Source: Marsupella aquatica
Taxonomy: Eukaryota; Plantae; Marchantiophyta
NCBI GenBank assembly: GCA_973895155.1
Contig: OZ316891.1
Coordinates: 3,051,801 to 3,115,800, forward strand
DNA length: 64,000 nt
Direction of reading: 5' to 3'
Within the stretch, counting starts at the first letter, position 1. The number at the start of each line of letters is the position of its first letter. The notes beneath the pieces are model-generated. The model had not been told where the DNA came from. It saw only the letters and a list, made by a program, of their open reading frames with translations, and searched no databases. Shown piece after piece: positions 8,389 through 30,309 of the stretch. The translations under genes were made by a program, and so were the position numbers.

Positions 8389-8676
8389 CTTGGGGGGTTA
8401 ACTAAGTGTATATTTTGGGGTACCACGTGCAATCCTAGCCTAATATAAATAGACCTATTTTATAAAGAAAATATTCCAAGAATATTATCTATTTTCAATA
8501 TTAATGACCTATTTTACTTTATAAAGGGTATATATTAAACAATATTCTATAAACATGAGTTTATAATACCTTCTTTTGCCTCCTACGCTTTTTAAAAATT
8601 TAGTTAAAATTTGTCAAAACTACCTATTTTGGATCGCACATGGTTTCTAAAATTTTTGATAGTCAACCCCCCCGAG
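8389..8676. mobile_element. 288-bp MITE, copy A (8-bp TSD, hAT-like)
   Basis: TIRs CTTGGGGGGTTAACTA / TAGTCAACCCCCCCGAG; flanks GCCCCAAT (8381-8388) and GCTCCAAT (8677-8684); AT-rich core; reverse-complement homolog at 30726..31013. Confidence 0.85.
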
Positions 8677-8924: not shown

Positions 8925-11900
8925 ATATTAGGGATTTGGTGGAGAGTTGGGAGCCACAAACTGGTCCTAAGCTGACAGGGGAGGAGAGACGTTGCATGCA
9001 TCGATTCCTGAAGAGTTACTAGAATTGTTTTGCATTTAGCATGAAGGATTTGGGGACATTAAAGGGCCCTGGTATTCAGATTGAATTGGCTAGTGATGCA
9101 CCAATCTTTCGTAGACCATACCGTTACAGTGACACGGAGAGAACTCTGATTCAAAGCAAAACTCAAGATTTGTTGGAGGCTGGATTGGTAGAGATTTCAT
9201 ATGGGGAGTATGCATCTGCCACAGTGATGCCAGCCAAGAAGGATGTGCATAGCAATTACACAGATAGGCGCATGTGTGGTGATTACAGACCTATTAATCG
9301 CCACACAAAATCTGATCGATATGCCATGCCTACACCTGAGGAGATCTTTGATGCTGTTGAGCATGCAAAGGTTTTCAGTTCATTGGATCTGAGGGCAGGG
9401 TACCATCAACTTCCAATTAGGCATGCTGACAGGTCCAAGAGAGCATTCTGGGGGATTGATTTTATGGCAAAGATCGTTTGTATCAGTGGTTGTTCTTACC
9501 ATTTGGGTTGAAGAATGCACCAGTTGAGTTCTAGAGATCATGGATCGAATCCTTGCAGGTTTGGATTTTGTCAGATGTTATATTGATGATATTTTGGTCT
9601 ATTCTTCTACTATGGAAGAACAGCAGCAGCACTTGCAGATTGTGTTGGAGAGATTGAGAGCACATGGGTTGAAGCTCCATCCTGGCAAGTGTAAGTTCTT
9701 CCAAGACAAGATTGAGTATTTGGGCCACACTATATACCCAGGGGGATTGGGTGTACAACAGACCAAAGTGAAGGCCATTACATAGATTCCTCGTCCTATT
9801 GATGTGAGCAGAGTTCGTGCATTCTTGGGATTGGCGAGCTACTACAGGAGGTATGTTAAAGGATTTAGCCTGCTTGCTAAACCTTTAACCATACTCACTA
9901 AGTTGGATCAGGAATGGACTTGGGGTGATGACCAAGAGCATGTCCTTCAGGAGTTGAAGCAAAGGTTGGCATCATCCCCTATTTTGAGAAGACCCATTTC
10001 AGGCAAACCATTTCAACTACACACTGATTGGAGTGGAGTAGGACTTGGAGCAGTGTTGACTCAGAAAGATGATGAAGGGCATGAGTTTGTTGTGGCATAT
10101 ACCAATAGATCAAACAATTCAACAGAAGCTAAGTATAGCTCTTATGAGGGAGAGTGTTTGGCAGCAGTGTGGGCTGTGGCACACTTCCGTTGTTACTTGT
10201 TTGGTAATCCTTTCACTTTGATCACTGATCATCAGCCTCTCAAGTGGTTAATGGAGTCTGACAAGCTCACTGGGAAGCTTGCAAGATGGGCATTGTTGTT
10301 GCAGGAATATGATTTCCAGGTTGTACATAGACCTGGAAAGGTGAACTTGGATGCAAATGGGTTGCCGCAATCCATGTACCAGTCAACAGGATGAGATTGG
10401 AGCCAGATGACATGATGAGTCAGATAAGGAGATGGTGCCAGGATGGCATGCATTTGCCTTTCTTTTTTGGGTGCCAGCATACAGTGGATCTGTGGACTCT
10501 ACCTCATTGGATGGAGTGGATGATGAGTCTTCATATATGGATGCTGGTGAGGTAACTTCTGGACAACAAGATATTCACAATGATGTGAGAGTGTTGGAAT
10601 ATTTGCGTAGTGGTTCTATTGTTGGCAGTGTTGATGCCAAAGAACGTGATAGGGTTCTACAGATAGCCAAGAGGTTTCGATGGGAGGGAAACCATCTTCT
10701 GAGAGTACTGCATGATGGTAGGGTGTTGGTGGTACCAAAATCATCACAACAAGTACATTTGGTGCGACATGCACACGAGGAGTTGGGTCACTTTGGTGTG
10801 AAGCGCACTTACGGCTTGCTGCATACACATTATTGGTGGTGTGCTATATACACTCATGTCCAGCAATTGATAGCTAGGTGTGTGGTATGTGATAAAGTGA
10901 GAGCATCATTTAATGCTGTCACTCCCCAATTGCACCCGTTGCCGATCATGGGTCTGGGATATCGTTGGAGTTTGGATTTTGCTAGTCCATTACCTTTTAC
11001 CCAACGTCATAATCGGTATGTTTTGGTCATGGTGGAGCAGTTCTCCAAGTGGATTGAGCTAGTGGCGTTGCCAGATAAAGCCAGTGGAGGAGTTGCTGCT
11101 ACATTTTTGGACCGAGTACTCAGTCATTTTGGAGCACCAGCTGAGGTGTAATTGATTAGGGAACTGAGTTCAGTGGAGAGTTTGAGAGTTTGTGTGAACA
11201 AGCTCTGATTGATCATCGTACTACCTCTCGTGATCATCTTGAGGCAGATGGGTTAGCTGAGAGAGTTGTGCAAACTGTGAAGAAAGGATTACGTAAGTAT
11301 GGCTTGCAGGTTGGTCATCTGGGAGATTGGGATCTCCAGCTACCTTGGTTAGCTATGGGCAATTGTTTCAGTCAGCAAGCATCACTTGCATCCTTCTCAC
11401 CTTACTTTTTGCTCTATGGTAGAGAGCCAGATTTGCTAGCAGCTATTCGTCGTGATGCTGCACCAGTTGTGAACTTGGATGATCCTGATGTTTGGGTCAA
11501 GGTGTGTTCAGAGAGAGCACGAGTATTTCACAGAGTGATGCCCATGGCTTTTGAAAACCTTGCCATTGCCCAACATTGTGATACTTTGAGGTATACCACT
11601 ATTCGTGGAGGAGGTTACCGTGCAAGCATTCAACAATTTCATCCTAGTGATTATGTTAATTTGCAGCAGATATCACCCACAATACTTGATGTGATCGCAG
11701 GCCGAAGAATCTTACATGTGCGTGAAGTGTTGCCTTCTGGTGTCTTGATGTTAGAGGGACGCGATGGTATGGTTTGGAAGGATCATGTGCGCAACTGTGC
11801 ACCATGTCACCTTCCCAACATTGATGGTACAATATATCCAAGCTTGGCACATGTTCGTGCTGGCTTAAAATGTATGTTGTGTGGATCTGCTCAGGGAGCA

Positions 11901-12011
11901 ACTACTATGTTGATTTGTGATAAGTGTTCAAGAGGATGGCACATGTCATGTTTGACACCACCATTGCAGGTGATTCCTTGTGGATCATGGCTGTGTCCTC
12001 AATGTTGGTGA
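8925..12011 (+). pseudogene. Ty3/Gypsy pol (RT, RNase H, integrase) with C-terminal PHD finger; frameshifted, 5'-truncated (no gag/protease seen)
   Basis: RT: RMCGDYRPIN, LDLRAGYHQ, YIDDILVYS, IEYLGH. RNase H: LHTDWSGVGLGAVLTQ, YSSYEGECLA, TDHQPL. Integrase: HHCC finger (HEELGHFG...CVVC), WSLDF, ADGLAER. PHD: CMLC..CDKC..WHMSCL..WLCPQC. Confidence 0.95.
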
Positions 12012-12654: not shown

Positions 12655-12958
12655 TGATGGGTTTTGGACATGTGTGGACATGAGTTCCACTTGTATTCCA
12701 TTCTCTTGTGTTTGTGATGTGGCAGTGTGACTATGTTTGGATGTATGTGACAAGCGATGTATGTTGTGTAGCGATGTGTATGCGCACGACAGTTGCCAGT
12801 TGATCGATGGCGCGCCCAGTATGCGCAATAGGATCCGAGTTGGAGGCCAAATGTTTAGGGACCAAATTTGGTCCAGGGTGGCAGGTCTCCAAAAGCATAT
12901 ATGAAGGGAGTGGTGTCTCCCTGGGGGCCAAGGGCGAGCCGAAGTCGTGAGCCGCGGC
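12655..12958 (+). repeat. Second LTR copy, left part (interrupted by the CACTA)
   Basis: Starts TGATGGG and matches 12186..12324; ends at the CACTA TSD GGC. Confidence 0.6.
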
Positions 12959-12989
12959 CACTAGTAGAAACCGGGGTAATTTAGACCAT

Positions 12990-13115
12990 ACCTTATAGGA
13001 CTATGCCCACTAAGTCCTTTTTCCATACTTAAAACGACTCGCACTGTTTGCCCCGGTTTTGTTGAAGACTAGAAAAGACTATGAGTGTTTTATGGTTCAC
13101 TAAAAGACTATGAGA
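12990..13115. repeat. CACTA left subterminal repeats (putative TnpA binding sites)
   Basis: Repeated (A)AAGACTATG / GGACTATG / ACGACTCGCA motifs. Confidence 0.6.
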
Positions 13116-16100
13116 AGTAACCTTGCTACTTTGTGAAGGGTGAATAGTCTGTGGGTTATCATGGACCATAATGTTCACTTATGTTGAGGAGGGGTAATTC
13201 TATAAAGAGGGTGATAGCAAGGGGCATAACTCATTAAATGGCCTTATTTGTGAGCAAAAAGGTTTTGGGTTTAATGAAGTGGGGTTCATGGAGGATGGAC
13301 TACGGAGGGATGGTCAATATATTTTTGGCCATTACTAAATCCATCTATAAAAGGCCAAGAAGCACAAAGGTAGATTTGTAACGGTCCTTTTTCATACATT
13401 AGAGCTCCCTATCATTCTTGCACCGGGAATATTGCTTTTTAGGACCGGATATAATGTTGGGCAACCTTAATCCTCATTACAGCACAATAAAATGCCAATA
13501 TCATACATGTATGTGCAAATATGACCATTCATTGCCTTCTTAGGGTTTAGGGTGTTTGCCTTGTTGGAGTCTACTAGTGTTTAGAGAACATATGCTTAAT
13601 TATGTGCTCAACTGCTGACCCCAATGGTAAGGGCTTCATAAATTCCTTCCCTAATTTTTTTTAAGGGCTTTCTCAACCCTTGGGCCGGACTAAGTACAAA
13701 CTACATGGGCAAGGCGCGGGAGAATGAGGCCGTAACTCGGTGGCCTAAACAAGGTGGTGGGGTCTTGGGTCGGGTGTTCGGGGTTTTTCCAAAGGGTTTT
13801 TCATTCGCAGTTGTGCTTTCTCTATCTCTCCAGGCGCCATGCTGCATCCCTAAGTGTATACACTCTTGCCATCCACGCATGGCCCCTTACCTTTTACTGC
13901 CATTGTTGAATGCAGGATCAACCCGGATATAGCACCTGTGTAGAGGCATTGGGTGAGCGTAGTGAATGCCATTTGTGGGCCGAACGTTCGTGAGTCGAGA
14001 GCTACAGATCGTCCTACAGAACGACTGGCAGTCGGAGCGGCGCAGGAGCTTAGAGTGGGCCAACGCCAGCTGAATACAAGCCAGGAGTTGTTCGATAGCA
14101 TAAGGTGAGAGTCCAAGTTTTGTGTTGCTTTAGTGTCCGAGCAGCGTGCTGCCATTTCAGCCATAGTGCACCGCCTTTGAAGCTCCCGTTGTTAGGGCTG
14201 GTAAGACATCACGGCTACATTGCTTTTCTTTGTTGTCCTCTGTCTTTTTGTGGGGACAACCTACTTGATTTGAGCTGCGCAAATCGCCATAAGTTAAGGC
14301 ATGCGTCATGCCATCTGGATAGTGTGCCACCAAACTATGGGAGGATGAGCAACGCGTGGCTGTAACCAGGTATTCTGTCAGCACTGGCGAGATTTCATTG
14401 CTAAAATCCTATTGCCTGCAATGTGTCTTGTAATGTGTTTTTCCTCATTCAATCAGGAGCTAAGAAGGGTATTGTTAGGCTTCAATTACTCTGTGTTTTT
14501 CTCCAGCTCCATGGTACAGTTTGTGCTTTGTCTGGCACCCATGCTCCGTCGATCGTAGAGCTAGGTCAACCGAGCTTTGAAGAGGGAGGCTGTGGGAGCT
14601 CCTTACTGTGCTGCAACTGCTCTTCAATCAACGGAGTAGAGATTGTAGCTACGATCAGTGTTTGCGGAGCTGCCAGCCGGGTGCTTCGATAGTAGAGAAG
14701 AGCAGCCACAGTGATTCAGTCCTTCTCCTACTTGCAACCAAGGACCCCCTGTGCATCATAACGTTGGACCTCGGAGCTGAGCTGCGCATTGTCTCTATTA
14801 CATGCCTTGTTCTCCCGTCCAATGTTTCCTGCGATTTTCTTTCTTCTAGAAGAGAATGGTGATTTCTTCTTCAATCAAACAAAACCCCACCCAACCACCA
14901 CCCAAGAACGTGGGGTGTGCGCTTCTTAATCCTCCTCAAACTGGCCCCAAGTCTGCTGAAACCCCATATATTACCCACCGGCACCAATGGTCCAGTCCCA
15001 ACCCGTCTTCCGCTTGCCACCCTCCTCACTCTCTCGCGCATCTATCTCCCGATATTTCACGCGCAGCCGAGCCCACCAAAAGCTCTCTCCCTACAATCCC
15101 TCCTAAATCAACTTTCTTGTTTCCTACTGCTGCTGATGTATGTTTGTTCTCCCCTATTTTTGTTTACTGATTGGTCTCTCCACACTTCTTGCTTGACATT
15201 ACTGTTTTGCTCCTCCCTGGATCCGAACATGCCTTGTGCCCCGTGCTCCAACCTGCATCCTTTTCTTTACTGAGGGGGGGACCACAGCCTCCAGCCATAC
15301 CTTGTGGCGGGCCTGGTCAAGACGGTGGTCAGCCGCTCATTTTTGCGCTTTTTGGATTTGTTTCCCAAGCTTCTGGGCAAGGGCATTACCATTCCGGATT
15401 CTCCCCGAGGCGCCACTAGCTTTTTTTCTCGGTTGCCCGTGTGCCTACCTTCTTAGTTTAGTTCTTATTTTCTCTCGGTAGGTTTTCATTCACCTGATTT
15501 GGACTTTTTGCTCCGGTGGAATCTGTCTTGACAACTTGTGGGAGTTCTAATTGTTTATATTGAGCATTACATTAGAGGAGAATTATGAGAAGCTCCTTTT
15601 GTAGCATCCACATGAATGCTGCTGGTGTGAATCCTGTGTCAAGTGCAGGGTTGGTGATGGCAATTTTGAATGGTTCCATTGCTCAGCCAGTGGTGTTGCT
15701 CAGTCACTGAGGCGGGGCAGGGGCCCACCTTTGTAAGGTACAAACTAACTCAGAATTTGAATGTAGTATTTGGCTTCAATTGGCTCCTTGGTTTTGCTGG
15801 CTTCACAATGTCTGCTCATAACATTTTTTGATGAACATAGGTATGGATAGAACATAGTAATTGGGAATTCGAATCACACTGTTGTCTGCTTTGTTGGAAT
15901 GTGTAACTGCATACACATTCCACCTGAGGGTCGCAAGCTGGAAACATTTGGAGGGGTTAGTTTTTTGCAGCTTAAACCTATCAGGATTTTGCGCTTGTGG
16001 TGACGCTATCCTTTCTGCCACTTCATGAGTTTGTTATGGACACTGTGTATCAAAGTTCTTCTCAGGAGGCGCTGAGTTTGACAGGTCCATGTAGCTGCGC

Positions 16101-17193
16101 CATACAGCTTAGACTGGTGTAAGCAACTCAAATCAGTTGCTTTAGGCCTGCAGGATCGCGACCTAGATTTGCAAGTTGATTCTCCATGTTCACAGAACTC
16201 AATTTTTCAACATTGCTTTTGCTTTGTTGCTGACTGTCCTTGCCCGTAAAAGTACTTATATTCTCTGAGCTGCGGTTGGTTTGCAAGTCCCTGTAAGGTA
16301 TCAATGTACCTTTCTCCTCATTTTTTCCGCCTCACTTCCCTCTAAACCTTCACTTCGAGAATTACCTGAAACAAATCACTGTCTTTCTTGTGTCTATGTA
16401 CGCAGTGTCTGAGTTTCATCGTAATCTGTTGCATACCAATCACTGCAAGCCATTGCCATTGCTATCTCTGTTACGTCTATGTTGCTATCTCCATCTTCAA
16501 GCTGTCTGTGCAACTCTCAGGTGAGCTCGTTCATTGATGATTCATCGATTCTATGTTTTGAGCTGGACTTGCGCTTTGTATTGCATTGCAAAGCTTTGAC
16601 TTTGAACTACGATTTCTCGTTCATAACTACGATGACCACTACATTGCCTTACTCTGTTCATTGCAGTAGCACAAATACTCAATTTCATTGACAGAGATAC
16701 TGAAATTGCCACCCACTTTGTTTCAGTGTGTTTGACTGCTCGCTCTTGCAACTTTGGAGGAGGGAGTCTACAGGCGGGAACTGACAACACGCATTGAAGG
16801 TAGTTGAAGTCACTTGGAGAAATCATTCTTCCATATACATAGTTTCAGATTTAAAAAATGCTCCTTCTCAGCAGCATGTATTGAGTAGTTTGCCTGTCAG
16901 TTGAGTTATTGCTTTCCCATTGACAAACCTAGCATGTGGAGGAATTGCTAATTGAGCTGTATATTGCTTTGCCAGCTGAGCTCCTTGTTGAGCTCCTTTG
17001 GCGCCTTGCTGTGGAGGTAAGCCAACGCTTCACCTCATCTCAACCTTGACCTTCATTTTTTACTGGTGAGAGACTGAGTTGCCTCAAAAGTTGTGAACGT
17101 TGAGTTGTGTTGCGGTTGATAGCCTACTTTAAAGATCACGTCAGTATAGTGTGGATAGTTAACGAAGGGTGTGTGCTGCATTTTGATCTGGAC

Positions 17194-17232
17194 AACCAAG
17201 TGTAGAGTTGACTCTTTCTGAATGTTGTAGTC
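17194..17232 (-). pseudogene. Captured ubiquitin fragment (antisense to the CACTA genes)
   Basis: Reverse complement reads GAC TAC AAC ATT CAG AAA GAG TCA ACT CTA CAC TTG GTT = DYNIQKESTLHLV, identical to ubiquitin residues 58-70. Confidence 0.8.
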
Positions 17233-17680
17233 TGTTTTGCCTTGAACTGGGCCGTGGATGAATTGAGCTCGTGAGCAGTTTTTTTCTTTCCCATCTTCCT
17301 GAAGCTTTGTCTGCTTTCTGCCACCTCAGTGGAGGTTCACTTGCACAACACGACAACCAATGAGTTTTCTCTTTGCTGCAACCTGCAAGGTGAGACTTTC
17401 AATCTTTCTGGATGAAAAAACAGGATCCAAATATGATTTATGTACATGTCCATGGAGAACATGGTTTTATATACATGCTCTTTGTCTTAGGAACTCAACA
17501 TCAAATATGTACTATGCACTTTTCATGCTATGTGTATACTGTGACCTGTAGTTGGAACCAATTTAGTGAGTGGGAACTGATAAGTGCAGGTTGGTTGCTG
17601 TGGGCAAGGCAAGTCGACCTCCTGCTCGCCTTGCTCATCAAAGGACGTGAACAGAGGACATCACAACAAAAGCAACACTT

Positions 17681-18130
17681 ATGGTGAGGACCCGCAACGC
17701 TAAACATGTGCGGCTTGCACGCAAGGCAGAGATGTTGCGCCTTGAGTATGTCAGACTGGGGATCCTTCCAGTCCAGTCTGCATGGTACTTTGAGTACCCT
17801 ATTCTTTCCAGGAACAACTACAGCCGGCCACTACCTGCTTCAGTACCCTTCCCGACATCCTTGGTATTTGTGTCTCTTGTACATGACCCACCACAAATTA
17901 GGTGCCAAGGGTGTGTGCACAGTTGCCAATATGACTGTCCTGCCTGTAGGGCTTCTGGCCCAGAGTTGGATGACCGTTCTCTTGGATGTCCGTTTTTGCA
18001 TAGAGCACAATGTATCATCTGGAACCACTCGCCATCCTGCAGTGTGCCTGGCGATGTCACTTGTCCTGCCCTCCCAGACCCCACCACCAGTGACTTTGGT
18101 GTCTACACATGTTTGGATCACACGCTCTAG
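17681..18130 (+). CDS. CACTA cargo ORF1: 149-aa basic N-terminus and Cys/His-rich putative zinc-binding protein
   Basis: ATG-initiated and uninterrupted; CQGC..CQYDCPAC..GCPFLH..C..YTCLDH; same strand as neighbouring cargo. Confidence 0.5.
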   Translation: MVRTRNAKHVRLARKAEMLRLEYVRLGILPVQSAWYFEYPILSRNNYSRPLPASVPFPTSLVFVSLVHDPPQIRCQGCVHSCQYDCPACRASGPELDDRSLGCPFLHRAQCIIWNHSPSCSVPGDVTCPALPDPTTSDFGVYTCLDHTL

Positions 18131-18773
18131 AGGACCGCTTGTCACACCGCATGCACAGACCAGAGACCATTGACCTATAACTTAACACTCTGACTTGAAC
18201 AGAGAGGATATTTACTAAAAAATTTGAATTATGAGCAATTTTGGGTCCAGGGTTTAGGGTCAACAGTACATAACTTATCCTATTATGGCTGCACTAAGTA
18301 GAATATCCTAATTTAAGATGCTAGCAAGCTCACTTAAAAGTCTCCTTTCAAAGACTGGAATTAATGGGCCATGTGATAACCTGGAAAAAGTGATTTATGC
18401 CTAACTTATTTGCCTCATTCACTATCATAGCCTATTTAGGATGTATAAATTACAACCCTGATCACACTGCTTGATACCAATCCTGTTCAAAAAATGCCTG
18501 TTTTACATGTGACGACTATTGTATGTGATTCAAATGCATTAAATCTTGTTGCAGATCTCCTTTGGTGAATCATAGCCACAAAATTGAGGTGTAGGTGGAG
18601 CTATTGTACTAGGGGATCAGTTTTCAGTGTGGGCTCAACAAACGATAAAGTATGTCTACTCTGCATCTCTATGTGATCATTTCATTGCAGTAGCAATTGC
18701 CACTCTAGTCTATATGCTACACTGTACTTTTTGTACACTGCTAAACTGTATTGTATCTGTCTCATGCGTAGGC

Positions 18774-19454
18774 ATGGCACGCCCTAAAATCCGAGCCAAG
18801 AAGCGGGGGACAGAGGTGAGCAACACAGGTGTAGTTGGGCCAGATGGTAGTAACTTCTCCGCAAGTCAAATTTTCTAGAAGGCAGCTCATTGTTGTGCCA
18901 TTTGTGACGATGGTGGGGGCTTAGCCATATGTGAGGGCCCTTGCATGAGGCATTTCCACCTCAACCCAGAGTCTGACCTTGCTACAGAAAACAACTGTCC
19001 AGGGGTGGGCCTCCCGTCAGCACACTAGGGAGGCTGGATGTGCACTGATTGTTTGGAGAAGCAGGCTAAGTGTAATCAGTGTGGGAAGTTGGGGTCTTAT
19101 GAGGGCTCTGTTGATGCTCCACCACTTGTTAGGAAATGCCCTGACAGATATTGTGTGAGGTTCTTTTGTTTTTCATGTTTGCCCGATCTTGCCACAGCTT
19201 GCCCACTTCATAAGTGCAAGGCATGTGGTCAGCACGATGAAGATTTCTGGGTGGACATAGTCCACTGTGTTAGGTGTCCCACCATGTGGCACTTTCATTG
19301 TTTGAAGGAGCGTCAAGCAGAAGGCTATGCTTGTGACAGACACATCTATCATCACTCTGCACATGGTGTTGATCGATGGATCTTCTATTGTCATCGCCAT
19401 GCCATAGATCCTACTTTGCACACTCCTATGAGAGATCACATTTCTTGGCTTTGA
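18774..19454 (+). pseudogene. CACTA cargo ORF2: stand-alone EDM2-type composite triple PHD finger (226 codons, two in-frame TAG)
   Basis: One frame from ATG 18774: CAICDDGG..CEGPCMRHFH..WMCTDC..CNQCGKLGS..CPLHKCKAC..CVRCPTMWHFHCL..RWIFYCHRHAIDPTLHTPMRDHISW. TAGs at 18876 and 19026. Splice acceptor just before the ATG. Confidence 0.88.
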
Positions 19455-20016
19455 ACCTAAGTAATGTACATGCATAGTGCACCTGATGTGGATACCTTGG
19501 AGATTGCAGACATTCCAATTTTGAGAAGAAGGACCTCTGTAGGAGAGGATGCTTAGGCAACAATTACCCTAAGTTCATTACTTGTTCCTGGGTACATGCC
19601 TTCAAAAACTCCCCTACAGCCCTCTAGGAACTTTTTTAACTCTGCAATCATTTTGATCACGACTTACACGACACTACTTAAATTAAATCAGGACTTCTCA
19701 TTATCAGCATATAAGTTACAAGGCTATTTAATTTGCGAGAATTCCCTTAAAGTGTACCAACATTTTGTATTCTCATTGAATGTCTGCCCATTTACAACAT
19801 CTGTATGTGGCATCACAAAACAATTGCACTTGTCACCTTCAATATTGTAAAGGCACATATTCAAACTATGAGGTGCATCCTTGCAGGTGTCTAGTACGTT
19901 TGAACCAATATTTCTACCATTTGGAATCGGAGCAGAGACTCACCAGACGACTGGACTGGATTATCAGGTGAACGCATTATCTTCCGGTCTGTAGTGATTA
20001 GGTGGGGTGTGTGTAC

Positions 20017-20865
20017 ATGGCCTCTAGGAAACGTACAAAGGTTGACCACCCGCCTCTGTTGGCTGGAATCAAAGCCATTTTGATTCCTGGCCACTATGGG
20101 TTCACCCAAGTGAGTTGGCCAATCGTACAAAAACGATTCTCAGAGTTCCATGGGACTGAAGTCAAGGACATCACTCCACAGACTACACATGTTGTTGCGG
20201 GGACATGGTTGGATGTGATGAACAAGTGGTCATGGTCCTTCATTGATTCTGCCATTACCAACCAAGGTCTAAAAGTGGTTGAAGTCTCTTGGCTGACTGA
20301 TTCTGTTAAACATAGGTGTGTACAGAGTACTGAGCAATATGAGTTGTGGAAGAGTGAGGAGGCCACTGTAGAGGCTTTGGCTGAAAAGGAAGCCTATGAA
20401 GCAGCGGCAGAGAAACCCAACTTTGCTTCTGTCGAATATGGACCTGTTGTCAACATAGGACACCATCCTATGCGTGCAGATGCTATATTGAATGAGCATG
20501 GCAAGGAGAGAAATACCATTATGAAGGGGTTCAGTGTGGTATTTGCAGAAGAGGGAATTGGGGAGACTAAGTGCAGACTGTACAAGTCCATAGTTGTTGA
20601 GCTAGGTGGGACAGTGGAGGAGAGTCTAACAGAAACCTCCACTCATGTTGTAGGTCTGTCATACATGAAAATATGCAGAAAATTCTTTAAGACAACAGTG
20701 CGTCATTTTGTCATGAACAACAATCTTTGGGTGCTTTCCCCTGATTGGCTTCTGGAATCAGCAGCGAGAGGGAAACGACAGAATGCTTGGGACTTTGATA
20801 TTTTTGAGGCCTGGCCCTCCAAGCTTCAGCGAAGATGTATGCTTACCAATGGTGGGAGAAAGTGA
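20017..20865 (+). CDS. CACTA cargo ORF3: intact 282-aa tandem BRCT-domain protein (DNA polymerase lambda-like BRCT)
   Basis: Two repeats carry THVV and W-L-x-[DE]-S motifs (TTHVVAG..VEVSWLTDSV; LGGTVEESLTETSTHVVG..VLSPDWLLESA); N-terminal NLS-like RKRTK. Confidence 0.85.
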   Translation: MASRKRTKVDHPPLLAGIKAILIPGHYGFTQVSWPIVQKRFSEFHGTEVKDITPQTTHVVAGTWLDVMNKWSWSFIDSAITNQGLKVVEVSWLTDSVKHRCVQSTEQYELWKSEEATVEALAEKEAYEAAAEKPNFASVEYGPVVNIGHHPMRADAILNEHGKERNTIMKGFSVVFAEEGIGETKCRLYKSIVVELGGTVEESLTETSTHVVGLSYMKICRKFFKTTVRHFVMNNNLWVLSPDWLLESAARGKRQNAWDFDIFEAWPSKLQRRCMLTNGGRK

Positions 20866-21041
20866 GGAGTAGGAGTCCCTCATATTTTTGTATAAATCAC
20901 AATTTTGTAATAAATGTGATCCCTGAACTAACTCATCTTGTCATGGTTGGTCGCAGTTGAAGTGATTGTTGTTTCCTGCTGTGTGGGGTGTGACTGTGAA
21001 TCTACTTGCTGGGCTCTGTTTGGCTGAAAACTTTGGTGGGT

Positions 21042-21488
21042 ATGTTGTCTCTTCCAGACCGACAGGCCCTATGTAGGGTCCTCCTACGGGTTGCATCATG
21101 CATGGCTACTGCTTGGGCTTACTTGTGTGGATTGGTAACCAGACAGAGTGTAGCTCCATCCGAGATAATGCCTGCAGACCTTGGATGTGTTGTGAATGTT
21201 GTGGTGAATGAGGATGCACAGTCCGAAGAGGACATTTACTTTTCAGCAGATGAGTTAGACAAGCACGATGCTGTAGGTGGTTCCTTGTTGCCTAATTTGG
21301 CAGATGATATAGTTCTTACACATGTCTGGCCGAGGGTTCTTGTGGTGTCTGGCGCACAAGATATCTGCAAATATAGACTAATTAGTACCCAGTGGAGGGA
21401 CTTGGTAGCAACATGTGCACCATGGAGGGCACTGCTGCCACTGCTTGTAGGCACGGATCGGAGACCACCATGGCATGAGAAGGTTTAG
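21042..21488 (+). CDS. CACTA cargo ORF4: F-box domain protein (C-terminus possibly frameshifted)
   Basis: SLLPNLADDIVLTHVWPRV...ICKYRLISTQWRDLV matches the plant F-box consensus LP.LP.D...I..R.....R.V...W..L. Confidence 0.72.
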   Translation: MLSLPDRQALCRVLLRVASCMATAWAYLCGLVTRQSVAPSEIMPADLGCVVNVVVNEDAQSEEDIYFSADELDKHDAVGGSLLPNLADDIVLTHVWPRVLVVSGAQDICKYRLISTQWRDLVATCAPWRALLPLLVGTDRRPPWHEKV

Positions 21489-21905
21489 ACCTTGATGACT
21501 TAATGTACATGCCTGAGTACCTCAGGGCTAAGTGGCATCGACAACAGGATTGGTATCCGTATTTGATGTGGTAGTAAGATGAGGACATCTCACACCGGTC
21601 TCGCACCTGGCACCTGTGTCTATGACTATACATGATTGGACTCTAATATGGTCATGGATGTACGTGCAGAGGCAGTACATGTGAGGACAGCGGAGGAGTT
21701 GACACCCTCAAACATTTAGGAATTTTGTCTCATTCACTTGAGAATAGGTACATGACTCAGGCACCTATATTTTTTGTTTTTTTGTTTTTTTGAAACGTTA
21801 TGCTACGTATTTTGGCAAGTACAGTCGGGGGTGAAATCCTTAACAGGAAGTGTATTTTTCACTTGCATAATAAAATGATAGGGTGCTGAGTGCGTGTGTA
21901 TAGTG

Positions 21906-24900
21906 ATGGCTCCAAGGTTGCCTCTTCGCAACCCATTTAGGATTAGGCATCATGATTCTAAATTGTGGATGTGTGAACAAGCCCGGGCCGCCCAAGGTAG
22001 GAGTAGGAGGATGAGATGCCATGCACACAGTGCCAAGGATTCAAGTCGTTGAGTTTGAACACTGTGCACCTTCACCTGCTGCGGCATGAAAGGCACCCTC
22101 GGTGGAGGGTTTGGAATGTACCAGCAGAAGAAGACTCCTCTGATGAAGAGTGGAGAGCTGACTTTGTGGATTCTAATACAGCTAGGCGTAGAGACTACGT
22201 AGAGCAGGACATAGACTGTGTAGAGGATGGTCCTAGGGTCCAACATGAGAACGTGGATGACCAAGATGGAGATGCAGAGGCAGTCACTGAGGACGGTGGG
22301 ATGGATATCCCAAGAATGGTTCAAGAGATTTTTTTGAAGACCTTGATGCTTTTTACGACACAGTGGAATCAAAAGAGGACAATGAACCGCAACCACACAT
22401 TGGAGACGGCCAAGCTGAACCTGACTTTGACATTGGGGAAGGTGCAGTAGAGAGGGAGTGGGTGTTTGGGGGCCCAAAACACATCAAAGAAGCTTGCATT
22501 CCCATCTACGAGGGGTCGAACTGCTCCAAGCTGGGTTTTGTCGTGTTGTTGTTGAACATCTGTGGCAATCACAATGTTCCCAATATATTTGTGACAGAGT
22601 TGTTGACCTTCCTGCGCCGAAATGTGTTACCAGATGGTAATTCAATTCCAAAAAATATGTACGAGGCTAGGAAATTGATGTCTAACCTTGGGCTGAACTA
22701 TGTGTCTATTGACGCATGCCCTGATGGGTGTGTTCTCTTTCGCAAAGAGCATGCAGATAAATTGACATGCCCTCATTGTGGTAAGCACAGGTACAAGAAT
22801 GTAGGGAAATGTACACACCCTGCCAAGGTTCTTCGTCATTTTCCTCTCATTCCTAGACTACAACGTCTGTTTAGATGCCCTACCATTTCCAAGCTGATGA
22901 CATGGACTCCTGATAACAAGAGCAGTGATGGCCTACAGCGTCACATTGGAGATTCCAACCATTGGAAATTTGTTGATGAGAGGTGGCCACAGTTTGCTGT
23001 AGAGAAGTGGAACTTTCGATTTGGTCTATCACTGGATGGAGTAAACCCATTTGGAGACAAAAACAACCGTTATTCATGTTGGCCGGTTACGCTGCTAAAT
23101 TACAACCTTCCCCCATGGATGACTACAAAGAGGTTTTTTGTCATGATGGTGCTGTTAATCCCTGGACCAGCTTCTGTGACCGAGCAATTCATAGATATCA
23201 TGTTGGCTCCAGCAGTGGAAGAGTGGAAGACTTTGTGGATAGAAGGGGTGTTAACCCATGATGTTCTGAAGGGGCTTCTTCGACCCAGCCCCTTTAGACT
23301 GCATGCAATTTGTTTGCTGGATATAGCAGATTACCCAGGCCATGGCATCATATCTGGACGAGTGACAAAGGGCTATGTGGGGTGCACACCATGTGGGAAA
23401 AATGTGACAAGTGAGTGGTCGCATGCCCTGCACAGTATGAAATTTCAGGGGCATAGAAGGTATCTGCCTGCTGATCATCCTTACAGGCACACACGGTCTC
23501 AAATTGCACACTTCAACAACAAAACAGAGCTTCGTGGCCCACCACAGAGGGTCACCAAAGAGCAAGTCCTGAGGTGGGCAGCCAGGAAGGCTGATTGGGA
23601 CAAGATAAGTGCCACTGATTGAGAACCTGAGGATCCAGTGGTGAAACACGGTGTGAAAAGACAGACCTTGATGGACTTGGAGTTGGAGTACTGGAGGGTA
23701 ATGTACTTAGCCTCCAGCCCCTGTATGATTGCAATTTTAGATTGGAGCAATGGTGGATTGATGTTGGTTACAATCCTCCTATGTGGTTAATTAGTGTTTC
23801 TGTTGTTGAATTCTTTGCTTTGTGGAGTGCAGGAATTCGAGCCCAGCAAACACAATGTGGACGTCATGCACATTGAGAAAAATATTTGTGAGAGCTTGCT
23901 GAAGTTCTTGTCGGGTGAGAAAGATATAGGAGCAATTTGAGCTGATATGCAACAGAAGAGGATTCGCCCTCACCTTTGGTTGAAGCCCCATGCAAGCAAT
24001 CCCAATGTACTTCTCAAGTTCCAAGCTCCCTATGTGTGCACACAGGAAGAATGGAAGACATTCTTGTATAGATTGAGCTGTCTGAAAGTGCCCTCTGGCT
24101 ATGCTGGTGCCTTCAAGAAGCATATTACAAAGAATAAACTTGGCAGTATGAAAACACATGACTACCATGTGTTGATGCAGCACATTATGCCCCTATGCCT
24201 TAGAGGTCTCATGCAGAAACCAGTCTGTAATGTCATTCTTTGACTGTGCAATGTATTTCGCCGTATATGTGTGAAAGTGTGGGATCCCCAAGGATTGGAG
24301 CAGTTGAAGCAGGATGCTGCTTATGTCCTCTATGACTTGGAGATATACTTCCCCCCTGCTTTCTTTGATGTTATGAGTCATCTCCTAATCCATGTGGTAG
24401 AAGAGCTAGGGCAGTATGGGCCAGTCAGTACCAGATGGATGTACCCTATGGAGCGATACATGAAGTTGTTGAAAGGTCATGTGAGAACATACTACAGGCC
24501 AGAGGCTTCCATGGCATTGGGGTACATTAAGGATGAGACGTTGGGGTTCCTAACAGAGTACATGGCTAGGTCTGGTGAAGCTATGACAAGAGTTTGGAAA
24601 TCTGGTGAAGATGATGGAGTGAGTGGCGAGGTTGTTGAAGGTGTGGGACGTGCTGTTCAGCTGCCTGTTGTGATTCAAGACAAGGCTCATTCATATGTGC
24701 TGGCAAACACAGAGCCTATGCAACCATGGTGGAGGTGAGTGATTGAATTGACTTGCCTTTGTTGTGATGCTTCTTGTCTGTTCCAAGGGTGATCTTAGGT
24801 TGTCATGTGTTGTTTAGACCTAACTATGCCTGTACCTCATATTGCAGGGAATATGATATGCAAAAAGCTGCACACTCTGGGCAGCAGGATCCCTTCCCAC

Positions 24901-25607
24901 AGTTCGAGCAGTGGATTCGGGTGACAATTCGAGAGCATAGTAGACATCACCCAGATATGGAGAAGGATTTGTATCTTCTATCTGTGCCACCACGATTGTC
25001 TATTCTGACCTACAAACGGATGAGAGCTTATGGAAATCATTATCGAGTGAGGGATGAGCAGGGTGACCATTGTGTATCATATGATTGTGGTTTGATTTCT
25101 GTGTTTGAGCAGAGAACCTCTGAAGAACAGAGGGGGTGGATGAAGATGGGTTACGTGGGGGAGTTGACCGACATTTGGGTGTTGAATTATGGTAACACAA
25201 GTGTCCCAGTGATATTGATGAAGGGATCATGGGTGAAATCAGAGTGGCAAAGACCAAGGGCCACCATGAAGCGTGATCATGATGGGTTCTTGTTGGCCAA
25301 TTTTAGGTCCAGAGTACCAGAATGGTCTGAGCCTTTTGTTTTCCCTAGCCAAGTTGAACAGGCTTTCTTTGCAGATGTGGAGGAGTCACATGGCTGGAGG
25401 GTGGTATGCCATAGCCAAGCACGGAACAGGCAGATGGATGGAAGTAAAGTAGAGTTCAGTTTGGATGACCATGCTGCATTCGAGCATCCTAGTCACGAGA
25501 CTGTACTTCCAACTCGGGCAGGGACTGACTACATCCCCTTAACATTGAGAGAGACATATGATGAACCTGGGCAAATGGAATATGATGAGGTTGATGATTT
25601 GCAATAG
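21906..25607 (+). pseudogene. tnpD: CACTA TnpD-like transposase (transposase-associated Zn domain, Transposase_21, DUF4218, DUF4216); 3 exons; disrupted
   Basis: Motifs CPC..C..V..HL, IDACPDGCVLF, VLRHFPLIPRLQRLF, GLSLDGVNPF, YSCWPV..YNLPPW, HNVDVMHIEKN, MKTHDYHVLMQ, FFDVMSHLLIH, GPVSTRWMYPMER, EPFVFPSQVEQAFF. Introns 23698..23832 and 24735..24847. Frameshifts near 22020 and 22335; TGA stops at 23620, 23938 and 24241. Confidence 0.95.
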
Positions 25608-25784
25608 GCAACAGCTGGCGATTGGCAAGTATGAGGTTGAGGATGACTACCTGCACAGAGTCACAGAACGAGAATTGCTGCCTGGAATGATGTTTAGGAT
25701 AGTTGGATATGCATGAAATTGATTGATACTTTGAAGTTAGTGTGCTGATTCTCCCTGTTTGGTTGTGGGTGCTGTGCAGAAGCT

Positions 25785-28700
25785 ATGGGGGAAGAGGGTG
25801 ATGACATGGAGACAGACATGGGGCTTGGAGAGTGGGGTGAAGAGGAAAGATTGGATATGGATGGAGACCCAGATGCAGGGGGCTCACAGAAAAATGCATC
25901 TATGCAGGATGCACAGGGCCCCCATCAAGTCCCAGGTAGGTGGGCAGCTAGAGAGAAATCACATAATCCATACCCTAGAAGGAGCCAGAGTTATTGGTAA
26001 GGGACGCCTGATAATTATGATGATGACTATGATGGAGCAGAAGATGGATGGGATGAATATGAACACCTAGAGCGTGGTAGAGACGGGTACAGAGGGCAAT
26101 GGAAAGGTGAGGAGGATGATTGAACAAGTAAGTGCCTTGTGCTAGTGATTTTGTGATGGTAGTAGAGATTTAGCTCAATATGGACTTATCTGATGTGTAG
26201 CTAGGGCAAAGAGTTTATCTTACAGGTCCATGAGTGTGGCATGTACCTGTTGGTATGCAGACTCTGATTGGGACAATCACAAAAACAACAAAGGCCATCC
26301 ACGTTCAGATAGGAGGCAATCATTCATAGGCGGGAGAAACGACCCTAATTCATCAAGACAAAGCAATAGGACAGGTGGTCCAGAACCATCTATGTGCCAA
26401 GGGAGAGGTAACTTGGTCATTGCATAATTGCTCTGAAGTCCAGTGTATATTTGGCAGCAGGATTTATGATTCATACTTACCTAATGGATCCTATAAATGT
26501 GCAGGGACTCCAGGGAGGTTTGGACAATGCAATCCAGGCCGTGGGGGGACACCAGGCCGTGGAGGGACACCTAGTAGCGCTTCAGGGAGTACCAAGGCAG
26601 GAGATAGTAACAAATTTGGTAAAGTAGAAGTGAATTCCGATGGTTGGATAACTCCCACATGTGATGGTAAGAACCGTTGGCATGCTGACCTAAGAGGAGA
26701 AGTATTGCGTTGGTTAGATTTGAGCATTACAGAGTTTAGGAGTCAGAACAAAGCTGATTGGGCTGCTATCTGCAAGGACATTCTTGAACGGTGGGACTAT
26801 GTTGGTAATGATGGTAAGGGCCCAGTTGAAGATTGCATATCAGATTATGCAATGAGGATTTTGAAACAATAGAGGCATAGGTTGAAAAGGATGTGGATAG
26901 ACAATGGTTCTAACAGGAGAATGCCACCACCCCCATCATTGGAATTGGATCAATGGACACGGTTAATCAAAGGGTTCATGTCGGAGACTGGGCAGAGCAA
27001 GAGTGAACTGATGTCAAATGCTCGAGGCAAAGTGAAACACCTGTCACAGGCTGGGAGAGGAAGTTATGCTCCAGTGAAAGAACAATTGGTAAGGCAGTGA
27101 CATGCCTGATAGTAAGCCTCAAACTTATCATCTTGCTACCATTATTACATTTTCATTGACAATCAACACTTGGTTTCATTCATATGTATGTTGATGTGGA
27201 CTGTAGAAGAAATTGGCAGGTGAAGAACCATCAGCACAAGAAGTGAGAGAGGAGTTCATGAAACAAAGGAGTGAGGTGACAAGTGTGACTTCCAAACAGG
27301 TGATTATATTGTAATTCTGTATGTTCTATGACTATTTGGCCTTGAGCATCAGAAAGAATTGTAGTAGGAAGTAAGCAACCAGTTCTTGGGGACAATTATC
27401 TGAGATATGTAAGCTGTGTTATGACAAGGAACTGTTACAACTCTCACAGAGATGTGTGAACGGTTGAAGTCATTAGAGTGTGGACTCCCTCGAGTGGAAA
27501 GTAAATTGGCTGATCGTTTGGATATTGTGGAGGCATCTGTAGCGAACCTTCTTGCATCAGTGGAATCTAATTTCAAGCTTGTGATTGAAAAATTGGGTGG
27601 TTCCCAACCAAACAATGAGGGCAACATTGTACAAAGTGTGCCCTTGTTAACAAAAAAGGGAATTGGCAAATCTGACACAGGTATGGAAATGACACCGGCT
27701 CATTGTTCATTGTGTCCTATGTTCAAATGTTAGAAGTAAGTTTTCATGAATTGAGTGAATGGTTTGAATGCAGGAAGAGTGGAGGTAGAGGACCCTGTAA
27801 TCAGTAAGCAAAATGGAAAAAAGGTTGTTGAGACAGGTAACCTGCTATGATCCAGTACATTACATTTGAAAAGTGCATGGAGTTTTGTGAAGCTTAAGCC
27901 GGTTGGAGGTAATCTTTTCTGTAAGAACTGGTTGGATCAACTGGGATCTGAAGTGACATCATGATTGATGTATCAGGTGATTCAAAGAGCAATGAAAAAG
28001 ATGTGCCCAGTGCCTCAGTGACCATAGCCAAGGAGGTATCAGGTAAGCTGATACTTTAGATTCCTCTCCTACCATTGTTGAGAAACAATTCAGTGGTTAA
28101 TAGATTGAACCTGAATATTGTGGTGTGTTTATTGATCAGCAGAAGCAGACATGGAGGATATGGCAATGGCAAAGAAGGGGAAGAAGGCTATTCATAATGG
28201 TAAGGAGATAGTGACAACTTTGTGGTTGGTGACATGTACATGGCGCACATGTGATGAGTGATTCACTTATGTTGGACAATACACTGAATTGTAGTTGATG
28301 CAGAGTTGACAGACTCTCAACCAAGTGGGAGCAGGGTGAAGCGACGTCAAAACTTGGGAGCAACATTGGATGCAAGTAAGATTGTAGATGCTTCAATTGA
28401 AGCAAGTACAATGTTGGCAGATACTGAGATGATGTCGCAGGGAAATCCTGCTACACAATCGGAAGTGTCAAATATGGATGCAGATTCTTTGAAGAAGAGT
28501 GTAGCCAATTCTCGATCACCAGCACAAAACACTCGTGCCAAAGTCATGACTCGCAACCAAGGTATGAATAATGTCATGTATAAGCCACCCAGGAAAGCCA
28601 AGAAAAATAGCCAGGGTAAGGTGGAGGTGATAGCCACAGCAGAGCCAGTCCATAATCTTCTATCATGGGAGGATGACTCACAGGTATGTGTGGGTACAGG

Positions 28701-28896
28701 CATTTTGCGACCGGATCATGCTAAATTCCATGGCAAAGTGGTCCCGGATGACCATGTAGTAGTGTTGTTGAATACAATGATTGTATCTGATTGTAATTTG
28801 CCATTTCCGAATAGAGACGATGATCCACCTCAAGAAATAATTGCAGATGCAGTAGGATCTCTTGTGCTCCGGCCATTAGAGTGTGTTAGTCTGTAG
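25785..28896 (+). pseudogene. tnpA: CACTA TnpA-like multi-exon gene (Ptta/En/Spm Transposase_24-like central domain, TNP1/En/Spm C-terminal domain)
   Basis: PPSLELDQWTRLI..KSELMSNARGKVKHLSQAGRGSY; C-terminal VGTG..FHGKVVPDDHVVV..LPFP..IADAVGSLVLRP; ~10 GT-AG introns; TAG at 26870. Confidence 0.8.
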
Positions 28897-29389
28897 TGAC
28901 TGAATACAAGTGTAGTTAGAATCAAGTGAATTGTGTCACATTTTGACATTGCCTTGGAAAGATCCAAGAAATATCTGTACCAATTTTTCCATTTGGTAAA
29001 GAGGATGAAGGAGTGTGTGACATTGATATTTCTGAATTCTGTATGTATGAAACAAGTGATTGATGTCAAACTATGGCTCTATGATAATTGTCTATGATAC
29101 TTGAATCTGTTTTGTATCATTTGAGTATTAGTGTGTATGGTATAGAGAAATACTTTGTGACCTTCTTTGTAGTCTATGATGTTTGAATCTGTGAATTCAT
29201 ATTAGTGTACATGGTATAGAAGATGGCTTTCTGAAACTCTGAGTTCTAATGTTAACATGATGAATGGTGAGCTTATAGAGTGAGTTCATTCCAAGTACAC
29301 AATAAAACATAATTGGAATGTGTTATTTGTGCACAAGAGTGAGTTCATTCCAAGTAGTATAGTGGGGTTTTCATCACTCATATCCAGTT

Positions 29390-29714
29390 GACATGAAAGA
29401 CTTATACATACCCCACAAAGTGTTTACTTTAGTCATTTTATAAACCCACAAAGTATATTTAAAGACTACCCTTCTAGTCGTTCCCAACGACTCACCATCG
29501 CAGCCTATAAAAGACTACAAATGACTCACCAAACCTACCCACACAAAGACTACAATAGTCTAAAAATCCAGTCTATTAAACGACTTACAAACCAGTTCTA
29601 TAAAGGACTCAGTTGATTATAGTAACAAAACATACGACTCGCAGTCCTATAAAGGACTGGAGTCTTTCCCAGTCATTTCCAAGTCCTATACGGTACTGAA
29701 TAGTCATTTAATGG
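29390..29714. repeat. CACTA right subterminal repeats
   Basis: Multiple AAAGACTAC, CTATAAAGGACT and ACGACTC motifs in both orientations. Confidence 0.7.
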
Positions 29715-29747
29715 GGTCTAAATACCCCCCGGTTTCTACTAGTGGGC

Positions 29748-30308
29748 GGTCATGACAGAAAGGGAAAGCGCCAAACGGAAACAATGATATCTTCCCAACG
29801 GGAAGTCCGTTGGAGGACTTCTTGGGTGCGTTGGAAATCTCTCAAGGCCAAGTAGGCGTGGAGGTTGGGTTCTTGGGTGCATGTCCTGGGGTCAGGGTGA
29901 TCACTTAGTGATGGATAGGTACAAGGGGGTATCCGGGCCGCGCTCAAGGAAGGAGTTGTTCTTGACGAACAGTGGGCATGGGTTCTGGTTCCGGCTTATG
30001 GCATCGAGAGGACCTATCGCTGACCTATTTACCAATGTCTGTTGAGCTTGAGTTAGGATGCTAGACTTGGCAAGTTCTAGATCTTGAAGGGTTACTTACC
30101 GAGGTGCTTGGTTGCTTGTGCAAGCAGTGAGGACCGTTGAGTAGCGGTCGTGTTGGTGAGCAAGTGCAGCTTCGTATGGGAGGGGCCGTGGGTTGGTGCA
30201 AGGGGCACTAGGTTGCTTACTTGAGGTAATCCGTGGAGGCATTCAAGCACTAGGAGCACTTAGGCGTGGGTGCTGAGCTTGGTGAGGGGGCTGGGTGGCA
30301 AGGTCCAC
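29748..30308 (+). repeat. Second LTR copy, right part (resumes after the CACTA)
   Basis: GC-rich non-coding sequence continuing after the TSD; exact 3' end uncertain, abuts Harbinger ORF1. Confidence 0.45.
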
Positions 30309-30309
30309 C

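What the first reader, a model, noticed from the sequence alone, without database searches (positions are those of the whole stretch)
18774..19454. Transposon-encoded, PHD-only version of the heterochromatin reader EDM2
Seen: reading through two TAGs (both consistent with CAG>TAG deamination) gives a 226-codon protein made only of an NLS-like leader and three PHD-like fingers. The motifs CAICDDGG..CEGPCMRHFH, CGKLGS, CPLHKC, C.RCP..WH..CL and R..FYC..H.ID..L.TP.RDHI follow the EDM2 PHD region as I recall it from Arabidopsis, and the ORF stops where that region ends. The ORF track shows only the last 138 aa. Established: EDM2 reads H3K9me2-containing mark combinations and, with ASI1/IBM2 and AIPP1/EDM3, enables full-length processing of transcripts across heterochromatin. 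Inference: a TE-borne PHD-only form could protect the element's own transcripts, act as a dominant-negative decoy, or guide insertion to H3K9me chromatin.
Basis: partly seen in the sequence, partly recalled or inferred. Interest (0 to 1): 0.85.

Follow-up and report, generated by a model that had tools for sequence, protein, structure and literature searches.

The report
Transposon carries its own histone reader
A high-copy plant DNA transposon carries a separate small gene built only from the histone-reading fingers of the host protein EDM2; this copy is broken but intact relatives exist, and the protein is predicted to grip histone tails, likely helping the transposon stay active in silenced chromatin.

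Summary
Observation confirmed and strengthened. The 226-codon frame (two TAGs) lies inside a complete 16.8-kb CACTA transposon (12959-29744; 18-bp terminal repeats, 3-bp target duplication, Tnp2 transposase, empty sites seen in three runs). Stop-free relatives exist (81-36% identity); sister contigs read CAG at the second stop. About 21 such short proteins form one compact clade (100/100) on a long stem; next-best hits are named EDM2 proteins (31-34%), then NSD. 164 of 168 zinc ligands are kept against 573 of 1162 other positions. An intact relative folds confidently (pLDDT 89) and is modelled to bind histone H3 1-13 on finger 1 (score 0.63, best control 0.01; a textbook pair, so likeness only). 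Corrections: PHD-only EDM2-like genes also exist in hosts (Marchantia, grasses); finger 2 and the K4 pocket are remodelled, so H3K9me2 reading is untested; the leader resembles the H3 tail (A-R-x-K in 10 of 17), not just an NLS. Most likely a selected accessory reader that helps the element act in silenced chromatin; insertion targeting is the main rival. Not found in print in my searches.

The parts
12959..29744 (+). Complete CACTA (En/Spm) DNA transposon, 16786 bp, inserted into another high-copy repeat
   Evidence: 18-bp perfect TIR and 3-bp TSD; empty-site joint 12955->29745 in 3 of 4 runs
12956..12976 (+). Left TSD (GGC) and TIR beginning CACTA
29727..29747 (-). Right TIR and TSD (GGC)
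18741..18771 (+). Likely branch point and AG splice acceptor two bases before the ATG (inferred 5'-UTR intron end)
   Evidence: sequence directly; no RNA data
18774..19454 (+). Compact EDM2-type triple-PHD gene, 226 codons, intronless, broken here by TAG at 18876 and 19026
18777..18803 (+). Basic N-terminal leader resembling histone H3 1-9 (5 of 9 identical: A1 R2 K4 A7 K9)
   Evidence: post hoc test
18894..19052 (+). PHD finger 1 (codons 41-93); predicted H3 strand-binding groove at 45-54
   Evidence: PF23011 E 7e-4, below cut-off; complex model of relative P0002
19071..19211 (+). Finger 2 (codons 100-146), shortened, Cys132 in place of EDM2 His
19215..19400 (+). Finger 3 (codons 148-209) with aromatic residue 192 (Trp in 32 of 32 EDM2) in the predicted H3 interface
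   Evidence: PF23004 E 4e-5, below cut-off
17681..18130 (+). Cys/His-rich ORF of unknown family, upstream accessory candidate
   Evidence: no Pfam, no Atlas hit; covered by sister contigs
20017..20865 (+). Open 282-aa BRCT-domain accessory ORF
   Evidence: PF00533 E 1.5e-13; intact relative P0169, 61%
21000..21488 (+). ORF with weak F-box likeness; sister contigs show an extra base at 21481
   Evidence: PF00646 E 0.077, below cut-off
22007..25607 (+). TnpD-type transposase (Tnp2, DUF4218, DUF4216), broken by in-frame TGA at 23620, 23938, 24241 and by indels
26330..28896 (+). Further ORF pieces in the position of TnpA; no family match
   Evidence: 0 Pfam families for 3 pieces; label by position only

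Best explanation
A CACTA transposon family carries a stand-alone gene made only of an EDM2-type three-finger PHD cassette; the protein is predicted to bind histone H3 tails and likely lets the element counter or work through host silencing of its own chromatin. Shown: location inside the element, many sister copies, intact relatives, conserved zinc ligands, relationship to EDM2/NSD cassettes, absence of EDM2's RFD and C-terminal domains. Predicted: stable fold; H3 1-13 lying as a strand on finger 1 with a second contact on finger 3. Inferred: ancient capture from a plant EDM2-like gene, expression as a separately spliced exon, and action as a reader without an effector that occupies H3 tails, competing with host writers/readers or bridging host processing factors and the element's other accessory proteins; the H3-like leader would act as a built-in competitor or decoy substrate.
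For: Element anatomy. 949 contigs of run X1 lie on the 821-bp gene region. Six full-length stop-free relatives, P0002-P0006 and P0008, at 35-81% pairwise identity. Ligands 164 of 168 vs 573 of 1162 other positions in 7 relatives. Of 39 shown in-frame differences to sister contigs 15 are silent against 21-27% expected (omega about 0.4-0.6, p 0.009-0.07); in-frame indel rows are one compensated pair, 5 other rows lie past the stop. Clade 100/100. Model pLDDT 88.9, pTM 0.83; best fold matches NSD PHD-C5HCH, Z 5.9, rmsd 3.0, 85 aligned. H3-tail complex 0.63 vs best of 3 controls 0.01; the mark was reached by 51 of 78 solved and 2 of 108 mismatched pairs; runs agree in >=71% of contacts, partner pLDDT >=49. 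Context from passages read: EDM2 fingers bind H3K9me2 and favour full-length transcripts (PMC7472560, PMC9910501); TnpA-activated Spm elements keep H3K9me (bioRxiv 10.64898/2026.08.24.746577), so an active CACTA is transcribed through marked chromatin.
Against: No function was measured. The H3 model is a textbook PHD-peptide pair (solved AIRE and NSD3 complexes), peptides are outside the tool's calibration, only unmodified H3 was used, and it was run on relative P0002, not on this broken copy. The K4-pocket acid of EDM2 is lost (0 of 16 vs 64 of 65) and EDM2 Arg190 and Ser60 are replaced, so mark specificity may differ. No contig spans both the PHD gene and the transposase, so linkage in other copies is inferred, and the genomic context of the distant members is unknown. 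About half of the 21 relatives are truncated or frameshifted. The silent-change test uses only the 40 best-supported of 128 rows and mixes in this copy's decay. Placement of the family is open: inside liverwort EDM2-like clade p-AU 0.49, outside all EDM2 rows p-AU 0.475. In the monomer model the leader is not docked (pLDDT about 50).
Confidence: 0.45

Rival explanations
1. Insertion targeting: the reader likely tethers the transposase complex to nucleosomes with a given mark so that new copies land in repeats, like chromodomains on chromovirus integrases.
For: This copy sits in another high-copy repeat in a window full of TE debris; precedent for chromodomain, PHD and MBD capture discussed in PMC6673714 (passages); predicted H3 binding.
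Against: The precedents named there are domains within retrotransposon proteins; here it is a separate ORF 2.5 kb upstream of the transposase; one insertion in a repeat-rich genome says little.
Confidence: 0.22
2. Faithful mini-EDM2: the protein would read H3K9me2 as EDM2 does and recruit host AIPP1/ASI1 to suppress premature polyadenylation inside the 17-kb multi-ORF element.
For: Finger-1 groove residues D/E45, G47, G48, L50 and the finger-3 aromatic 192 are shared with EDM2; long multi-ORF element that likely needs splicing and read-through.
Against: RFD and C-terminal domains absent; finger 2 loop and K4 pocket remodelled; the papers that map the AIPP1-binding region were not held, so it is unknown whether that surface is kept.
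Confidence: 0.13
3. Repair coupling: the PHD and BRCT proteins likely act together at excision or insertion breaks to recruit or block host repair.
For: Adjacent, same-strand, open BRCT ORF with an intact relative.
Against: Adjacency only; no interaction tested.
Confidence: 0.08
4. Passive cargo: a captured EDM2 fragment amplified with the element and not translated, or useful only as siRNA camouflage.
For: This copy and about half of the relatives are broken; capture by Pack-CACTA is common (PMC13317346 passages); no RNA evidence.
Against: Open frames, shared start and stop, 164 of 168 ligands kept at 35-55% identity, a shared structural remodelling of finger 2; 31-34% protein identity to host EDM2 is too far for siRNA cross-talk.
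Confidence: 0.08

Closest known systems
EDM2 (ENHANCED DOWNY MILDEW 2) PHD module
   Same: Same three-finger order and ligand pattern, same end motif; named EDM2 proteins of Selaginella and Neltuma and the Marchantia protein of the same build are among the best non-family hits at 32-34% identity.
   Different: No RFD or C-terminal methyltransferase-like domain; finger 2 loop 7 vs about 27 residues with Cys for His; acidic stretch before finger 1 lost; intronless and inside a transposon.
Host short EDM2-like proteins (liverwort paralogues P0014, P0017, P0027, P0031, P0058; grass 'EDM2-like' 259-401 aa)
   Same: Lack the C-terminal domain, some are PHD-only. The liverwort set gives the top non-family BLAST scores and shares Trp in finger 3, non-Ser at 60 and His194.
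   Different: They keep the long finger 2 and His ligand; annotated as host genes; shared ancestry with the liverwort set is neither shown nor rejected (p-AU 0.49).
NSD1/2/3 PHD1-3 and PHD5-C5HCH
   Same: Best solved-structure sequence match E 2.5e-27 for the profile; best fold matches.
   Different: NSD-like protist proteins score below EDM2 and lack the end motif; no SET or PWWP domain.
TE-encoded epigenetic accessories: VANC, Spm TnpA, TET/JBP in fungal EnSpm, CopiaMBD, retrotransposon PHD/chromodomains
   Same: Transposon-borne factors that engage host chromatin marks; TET/JBP occurs in EnSpm elements (PMC12730594 passages); MBD captured from a host reader (PMC6673714 passages).
   Different: Those are DNA-binding activators, enzymes, or domains within retrotransposon proteins; this is a stand-alone histone-reader cassette from a traceable plant RNA-processing regulator in a DNA transposon.

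Membership tests
CACTA/EnSpm transposon | CACTA...TAGTG termini with TIR | tested here: met
   18-bp perfect TIR
CACTA/EnSpm transposon | 3-bp target site duplication | tested here: met
   GGC/GGC; empty-site joints
CACTA/EnSpm transposon | Tnp2-family transposase | tested here: met
   PF02992 E 1.3e-58, PF13960 E 3e-26; broken in this copy
CACTA/EnSpm transposon | TnpA-like second protein | tested here: inconclusive
   ORF pieces at 26.3-28.9 kb have no Pfam match
EDM2 | Tandem atypical PHD cassette of EDM2/NSD type | tested here: met
   24 ligand positions align; best named hits EDM2
EDM2 | Finger 2 matching PF22908 with His ligand and long loop | tested here: not met
   No PF22908 hit in 5 of 5 family proteins scanned, strong hits in EDM2; Cys in 14 of 15 family rows covering the column vs His in 31 of 32 EDM2
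EDM2 | N-terminal RFD/acidic region and C-terminal methyltransferase-like (ELP) domain | tested here: not met
   Frame ends at the cassette in the window and in 6 full-length relatives; upstream coding exons cannot be excluded without RNA
EDM2 | Nested inside EDM2 phylogeny | tested here: inconclusive
   AU p 0.49 (with liverwort paralogues), 0.475 (outside), 0.021 (with angiosperm EDM2, rejected)
EDM2 | Binds H3K9me2-containing tails | not testable with these tools
   Only unmodified H3 could be modelled
EDM2 | Joins ASI1-AIPP1 complex | not tested
   No AIPP1 sequence in session; the one complex job went to H3
NSD methyltransferases | SET and PWWP domains | tested here: not met
   Only PHD-type Pfam hits
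Histone H3 mimics | Free N-terminal A-R-x-K with K9-like lysine | tested here: inconclusive
   [AT]R.K start in 10 of 17; 54 identities vs 13.6 in shuffles, 0 of 20000; rows related, start Met chosen by best score, one subclade has the motif internal, other ORFs of the element also have basic leaders
Histone H3 mimics | Bound or modified by histone readers/writers | not testable with these tools
   Needs biochemistry

The most novel reading that the evidence does not exclude
Plant CACTA elements long ago captured the reader module of the host machine that keeps heterochromatin-containing genes expressed, rebuilt it as a free H3-tail-binding protein carrying its own H3-mimic tail, and deploy it with BRCT and F-box-like partners as a dedicated counter-silencing cassette; the model also points to finger 1 plus a conserved finger-3 tryptophan as the H3 site of EDM2 itself.
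Probability: 0.25. Interest if true: 0.88.

Novelty: new variant of a known kind. Interest (0 to 1): 0.7.

Why it matters
Known plant TE counter-silencing factors act on DNA (VANC, TnpA). A stand-alone histone reader taken from EDM2 would be a different route, aimed at the histone layer that TnpA leaves in place. The family is a natural, small (about 220 aa), confidently folded version of the EDM2 cassette, for which the PDB search returned no plant structure, so it makes both the TE question and EDM2's histone-binding mode directly testable. None of the 10 family proteins looked up carries an informative annotation, so it has been missed by gene catalogues.

Tried and rejected
The 290-bp inverted pair 8384-8672 / 30729-31018 is not the element's TIR: each copy has its own G-run ends and 8-bp flanking duplication, i.e. 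two hAT-type MITE insertions. No own genome is held, so no copy count or codon-level dN/dS on full-length copies. No RNA holder listed: no evidence on expression either way. 'Longer' homologue search gave 1 hit of 3704 candidates (Mesostigma NSD-like) and missed EDM2, a word-index limit that the full HMMER scan overcame. Metagenome scan: 9 loci, none of the compact family; L001 is a full EDM2, L002-L008 short EDM2-like, L009 unrelated PHD repeats. Viral contigs: 0 of 42 candidates. First fold with 6 sequences was poor (pLDDT 47.6) and not used. 69-row tree finished only as a quick tree; the 35-row careful tree left out short fragments and redundant angiosperm rows. Wide VIA search not run. BRCT ORF: no PDB match at E<=0.01. 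Cys-rich ORF: no Pfam or Atlas hit. Earlier scan notes: nothing. Primary EDM2 papers (Lei 2014, Tsuchiya 2013 and 2014, Duan 2017, Lai 2019) not held; their results are taken second-hand. Supplements of the Spm preprint are closed and could list a PHD accessory among its 962 proteins; Repbase could not be searched.

Full report
1. Observation. The frame 18774-19454 (+) has 226 codons with TAG at codons 35 and 85. Read with X at the breaks it has a basic leader and three Cys/His fingers; Pfam gives only sub-threshold NSD-type PHD hits. Five stop-free proteins of 217-245 aa match it end to end at 81, 74, 52, 40 and 38% and share its start region and DHISW end. Contigs of four public runs laid on the gene read C at 19026 in 99-100% of summed depth, so the second stop is CAG>TAG. 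All five relatives have Gln at the first stop; the base itself was not among the 40 of 128 rows shown.

2. Setting. The gene lies in a CACTA element, 12959-29744, with 18-bp perfect TIRs and a GGC target duplication. Contigs in X1, X2 and X5 join 12955 to 29745, the empty site in other copies of the flanking repeat. On the same strand follow a BRCT ORF (E 1.5e-13), a weak F-box ORF (E 0.077), the Tnp2 transposase (E 1e-58) and unassigned ORF pieces. The transposase has three in-frame TGA stops and indels, so this copy is decaying throughout, not only in the PHD gene. Sister contigs cover every bin from 17.2 to 29.7 kb in X1, X2 and X5, and 949 contigs of X1 lie on the 821-bp gene region. Summed depth is not a copy number and no contig spans both the PHD gene and the transposase, so co-occurrence in other copies is inferred.

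3. Family. A profile scan of 1.84 billion proteins gave 555 hits at E<=0.001. Of the 150 listed, the top ranks are short proteins like the query; 68 carry the GRHFT motif seen in the C-terminal domain of named EDM2 proteins (marker chosen by me). I count 21 short relatives; six are full length and open, one lacks its start, the rest are truncated, frameshifted or altered at the end. Ten looked up come only from raw assemblies, without informative names. They share a finger 2 with a 7-residue loop (about 27 in EDM2) and Cys for His, and form one clade (100/100, stem 1.77; 35 rows; SH-aLRT 90 in the 69-row quick tree). Origin is unresolved: union with liverwort paralogues p-AU 0.49, outside all EDM2 rows 0.475, with angiosperm EDM2 rejected at 0.021. 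Liverwort paralogues give the highest non-family BLAST scores (126-115 bits vs 114 for the Marchantia full-length protein and 66-91 for NSD-like protist proteins) and share three diagnostic residues. PHD-only EDM2-like genes also exist in host annotations of Marchantia, Miscanthus and wheat relatives, so PHD-only is not unique to the element.

4. Selection. In seven relatives 164 of 168 ligand positions match against 573 of 1162 others. Among 39 shown coding differences to sister contigs 15 are silent (expected 21-27%; omega 0.4-0.6; p 0.009-0.07) and none hits a ligand; this is a truncated table that includes this copy's own decay, so it is modest support. Indel rows inside the frame are one compensated pair; five more lie just past the stop.

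5. Structure. Intact relative P0002 with a 100-row alignment folds at pLDDT 88.9, pTM 0.83; residues 1-20 are low. Fold matches are PHD readers, best NSD PHD-C5HCH (Z 5.9, rmsd 3.0, 85 aligned; middling by the tool's own scale); the profile matches NSD2/NSD3 at E about 3e-27 and no plant structure. Residues 22-226 modelled with a natural H3 tail (L011) scored 0.63 against 0.01 for the best of 3 controls; the mark was reached by 51 of 78 solved and 2 of 108 mismatched pairs; runs agree in at least 71% of contacts, partner pLDDT at least 49. H3 1-13 lies on finger 1 (45-54) with further interface residues 190-196 and 203 of finger 3. PHD-H3 is a textbook pair, so this shows likeness, not binding. 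Position 192 is Trp in 32 of 32 EDM2 and aromatic in 15 of 15 family rows that cover it: a candidate methyl-lysine contact (inference). The acid before finger 1, which in canonical fingers reads unmethylated K4 (recalled), is in 64 of 65 EDM2 and 0 of 16 family rows, so specificity likely differs.

6. Leader. After Met the window protein matches H3 1-9 at A1, R2, K4, A7, K9. Ten of 17 family leaders start [AT]-R-x-K; total identities 54 vs 13.6 in within-leader shuffles (0 of 20000). An AG two bases before the ATG could join upstream coding exons. It remains a lead, compatible with also being an NLS.

7. Mechanism. Most likely a selected accessory reader without an effector domain that binds H3 tails and helps the element counter or pass through silencing (0.45); rivals are insertion targeting (0.22), a faithful mini-EDM2 recruiting AIPP1/ASI1 (0.13), repair coupling with the BRCT protein (0.08) and passive cargo (0.08). 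I put 'selected, protein-coding accessory gene' at about 0.85 and 'binds H3 tail' at about 0.7.

8. Literature. Passages read: PMC3632883, PMC7529245, PMC5364540, PMC9910501, PMC10241880, PMC4980392, PMC7472560 (EDM2 domains, H3K9me2 binding, AAE complex); PMC13317346 (gene capture; 0 hits for PHD or EDM2); PMC13547354 (atlas of Arabidopsis TE products; 0 hits for PHD, EDM2, BRCT in main text); bioRxiv 10.64898/2026.08.24.746577 (passages and section 6: 962 Spm proteins, 0 main-text hits for PHD, EDM2, BRCT; H3K9me persists on TnpA-activated Spm; supplements closed); PMC6673714 and PMC12730594 (precedents). Searches listed no paper whose title or abstract start describes a TE-encoded EDM2-type reader; most subscription papers and Repbase are not covered.

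9. Verdict. Real feature; not an EDM2 member by domain content, but an EDM2-type cassette turned into a transposon accessory gene. New variant of a known kind (TE-borne chromatin factors); interest 0.70.

Noticed in passing
window 9023-12011 (+): Gypsy-type pol pieces (RT, integrase) ending in a canonical single PHD finger (PF00628 E 1.5e-9), just outside the CACTA; unrelated to the EDM2-type cassette. PHD-bearing retrotransposons are known (PMC6673714 passage).
   Followed up: partly
window 8384-8672 and 30729-31018: Two copies of a ~300-bp MITE with G-run ends and 8-bp flanking duplications, in opposite orientation; the second interrupts a NAM-associated-domain ORF (30254-30754).
   Followed up: partly
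window 17681-18130 (+): Cys/His-rich 149-codon ORF with a basic start, inside the block that sister contigs cover; no family found.
   Followed up: partly
window 20017-21488 (+): BRCT ORF and weak F-box ORF between the PHD gene and the transposase; an accessory cassette I did not find described for CACTA.
   Followed up: partly
window 13000-17200: Left quarter of the element is thinly covered by sister contigs with many deletion joints: a variable region; telomere-like TTTAGGG/AAACCCT motifs at 13540, 18250.
   Followed up: no
proteins P0014, P0016, P0017, P0020, P0024: Non-seed-plant EDM2 and paralogues begin M-A-R-T/V, again like H3 1-3, whereas angiosperm EDM2 begins with an acidic motif.
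   Followed up: no
proteins P0014, P0017, P0027, P0031, P0058: A liverwort clade of EDM2 paralogues lacking the C-terminal domain (100/99); one of three papers holding EDM2+Marchantia+transpos* concerns Marchantia miRNAs (listing only).
   Followed up: partly
L026, L039: Viral contigs with an exact H3 1-10 start fused to non-histone sequence: possible viral histone mimics.
   Followed up: no
window 1-300 and 4984-5283: 300-bp direct repeat, 91% identical, around ORFs with a weak integrase hit: likely an LTR element.
   Followed up: no
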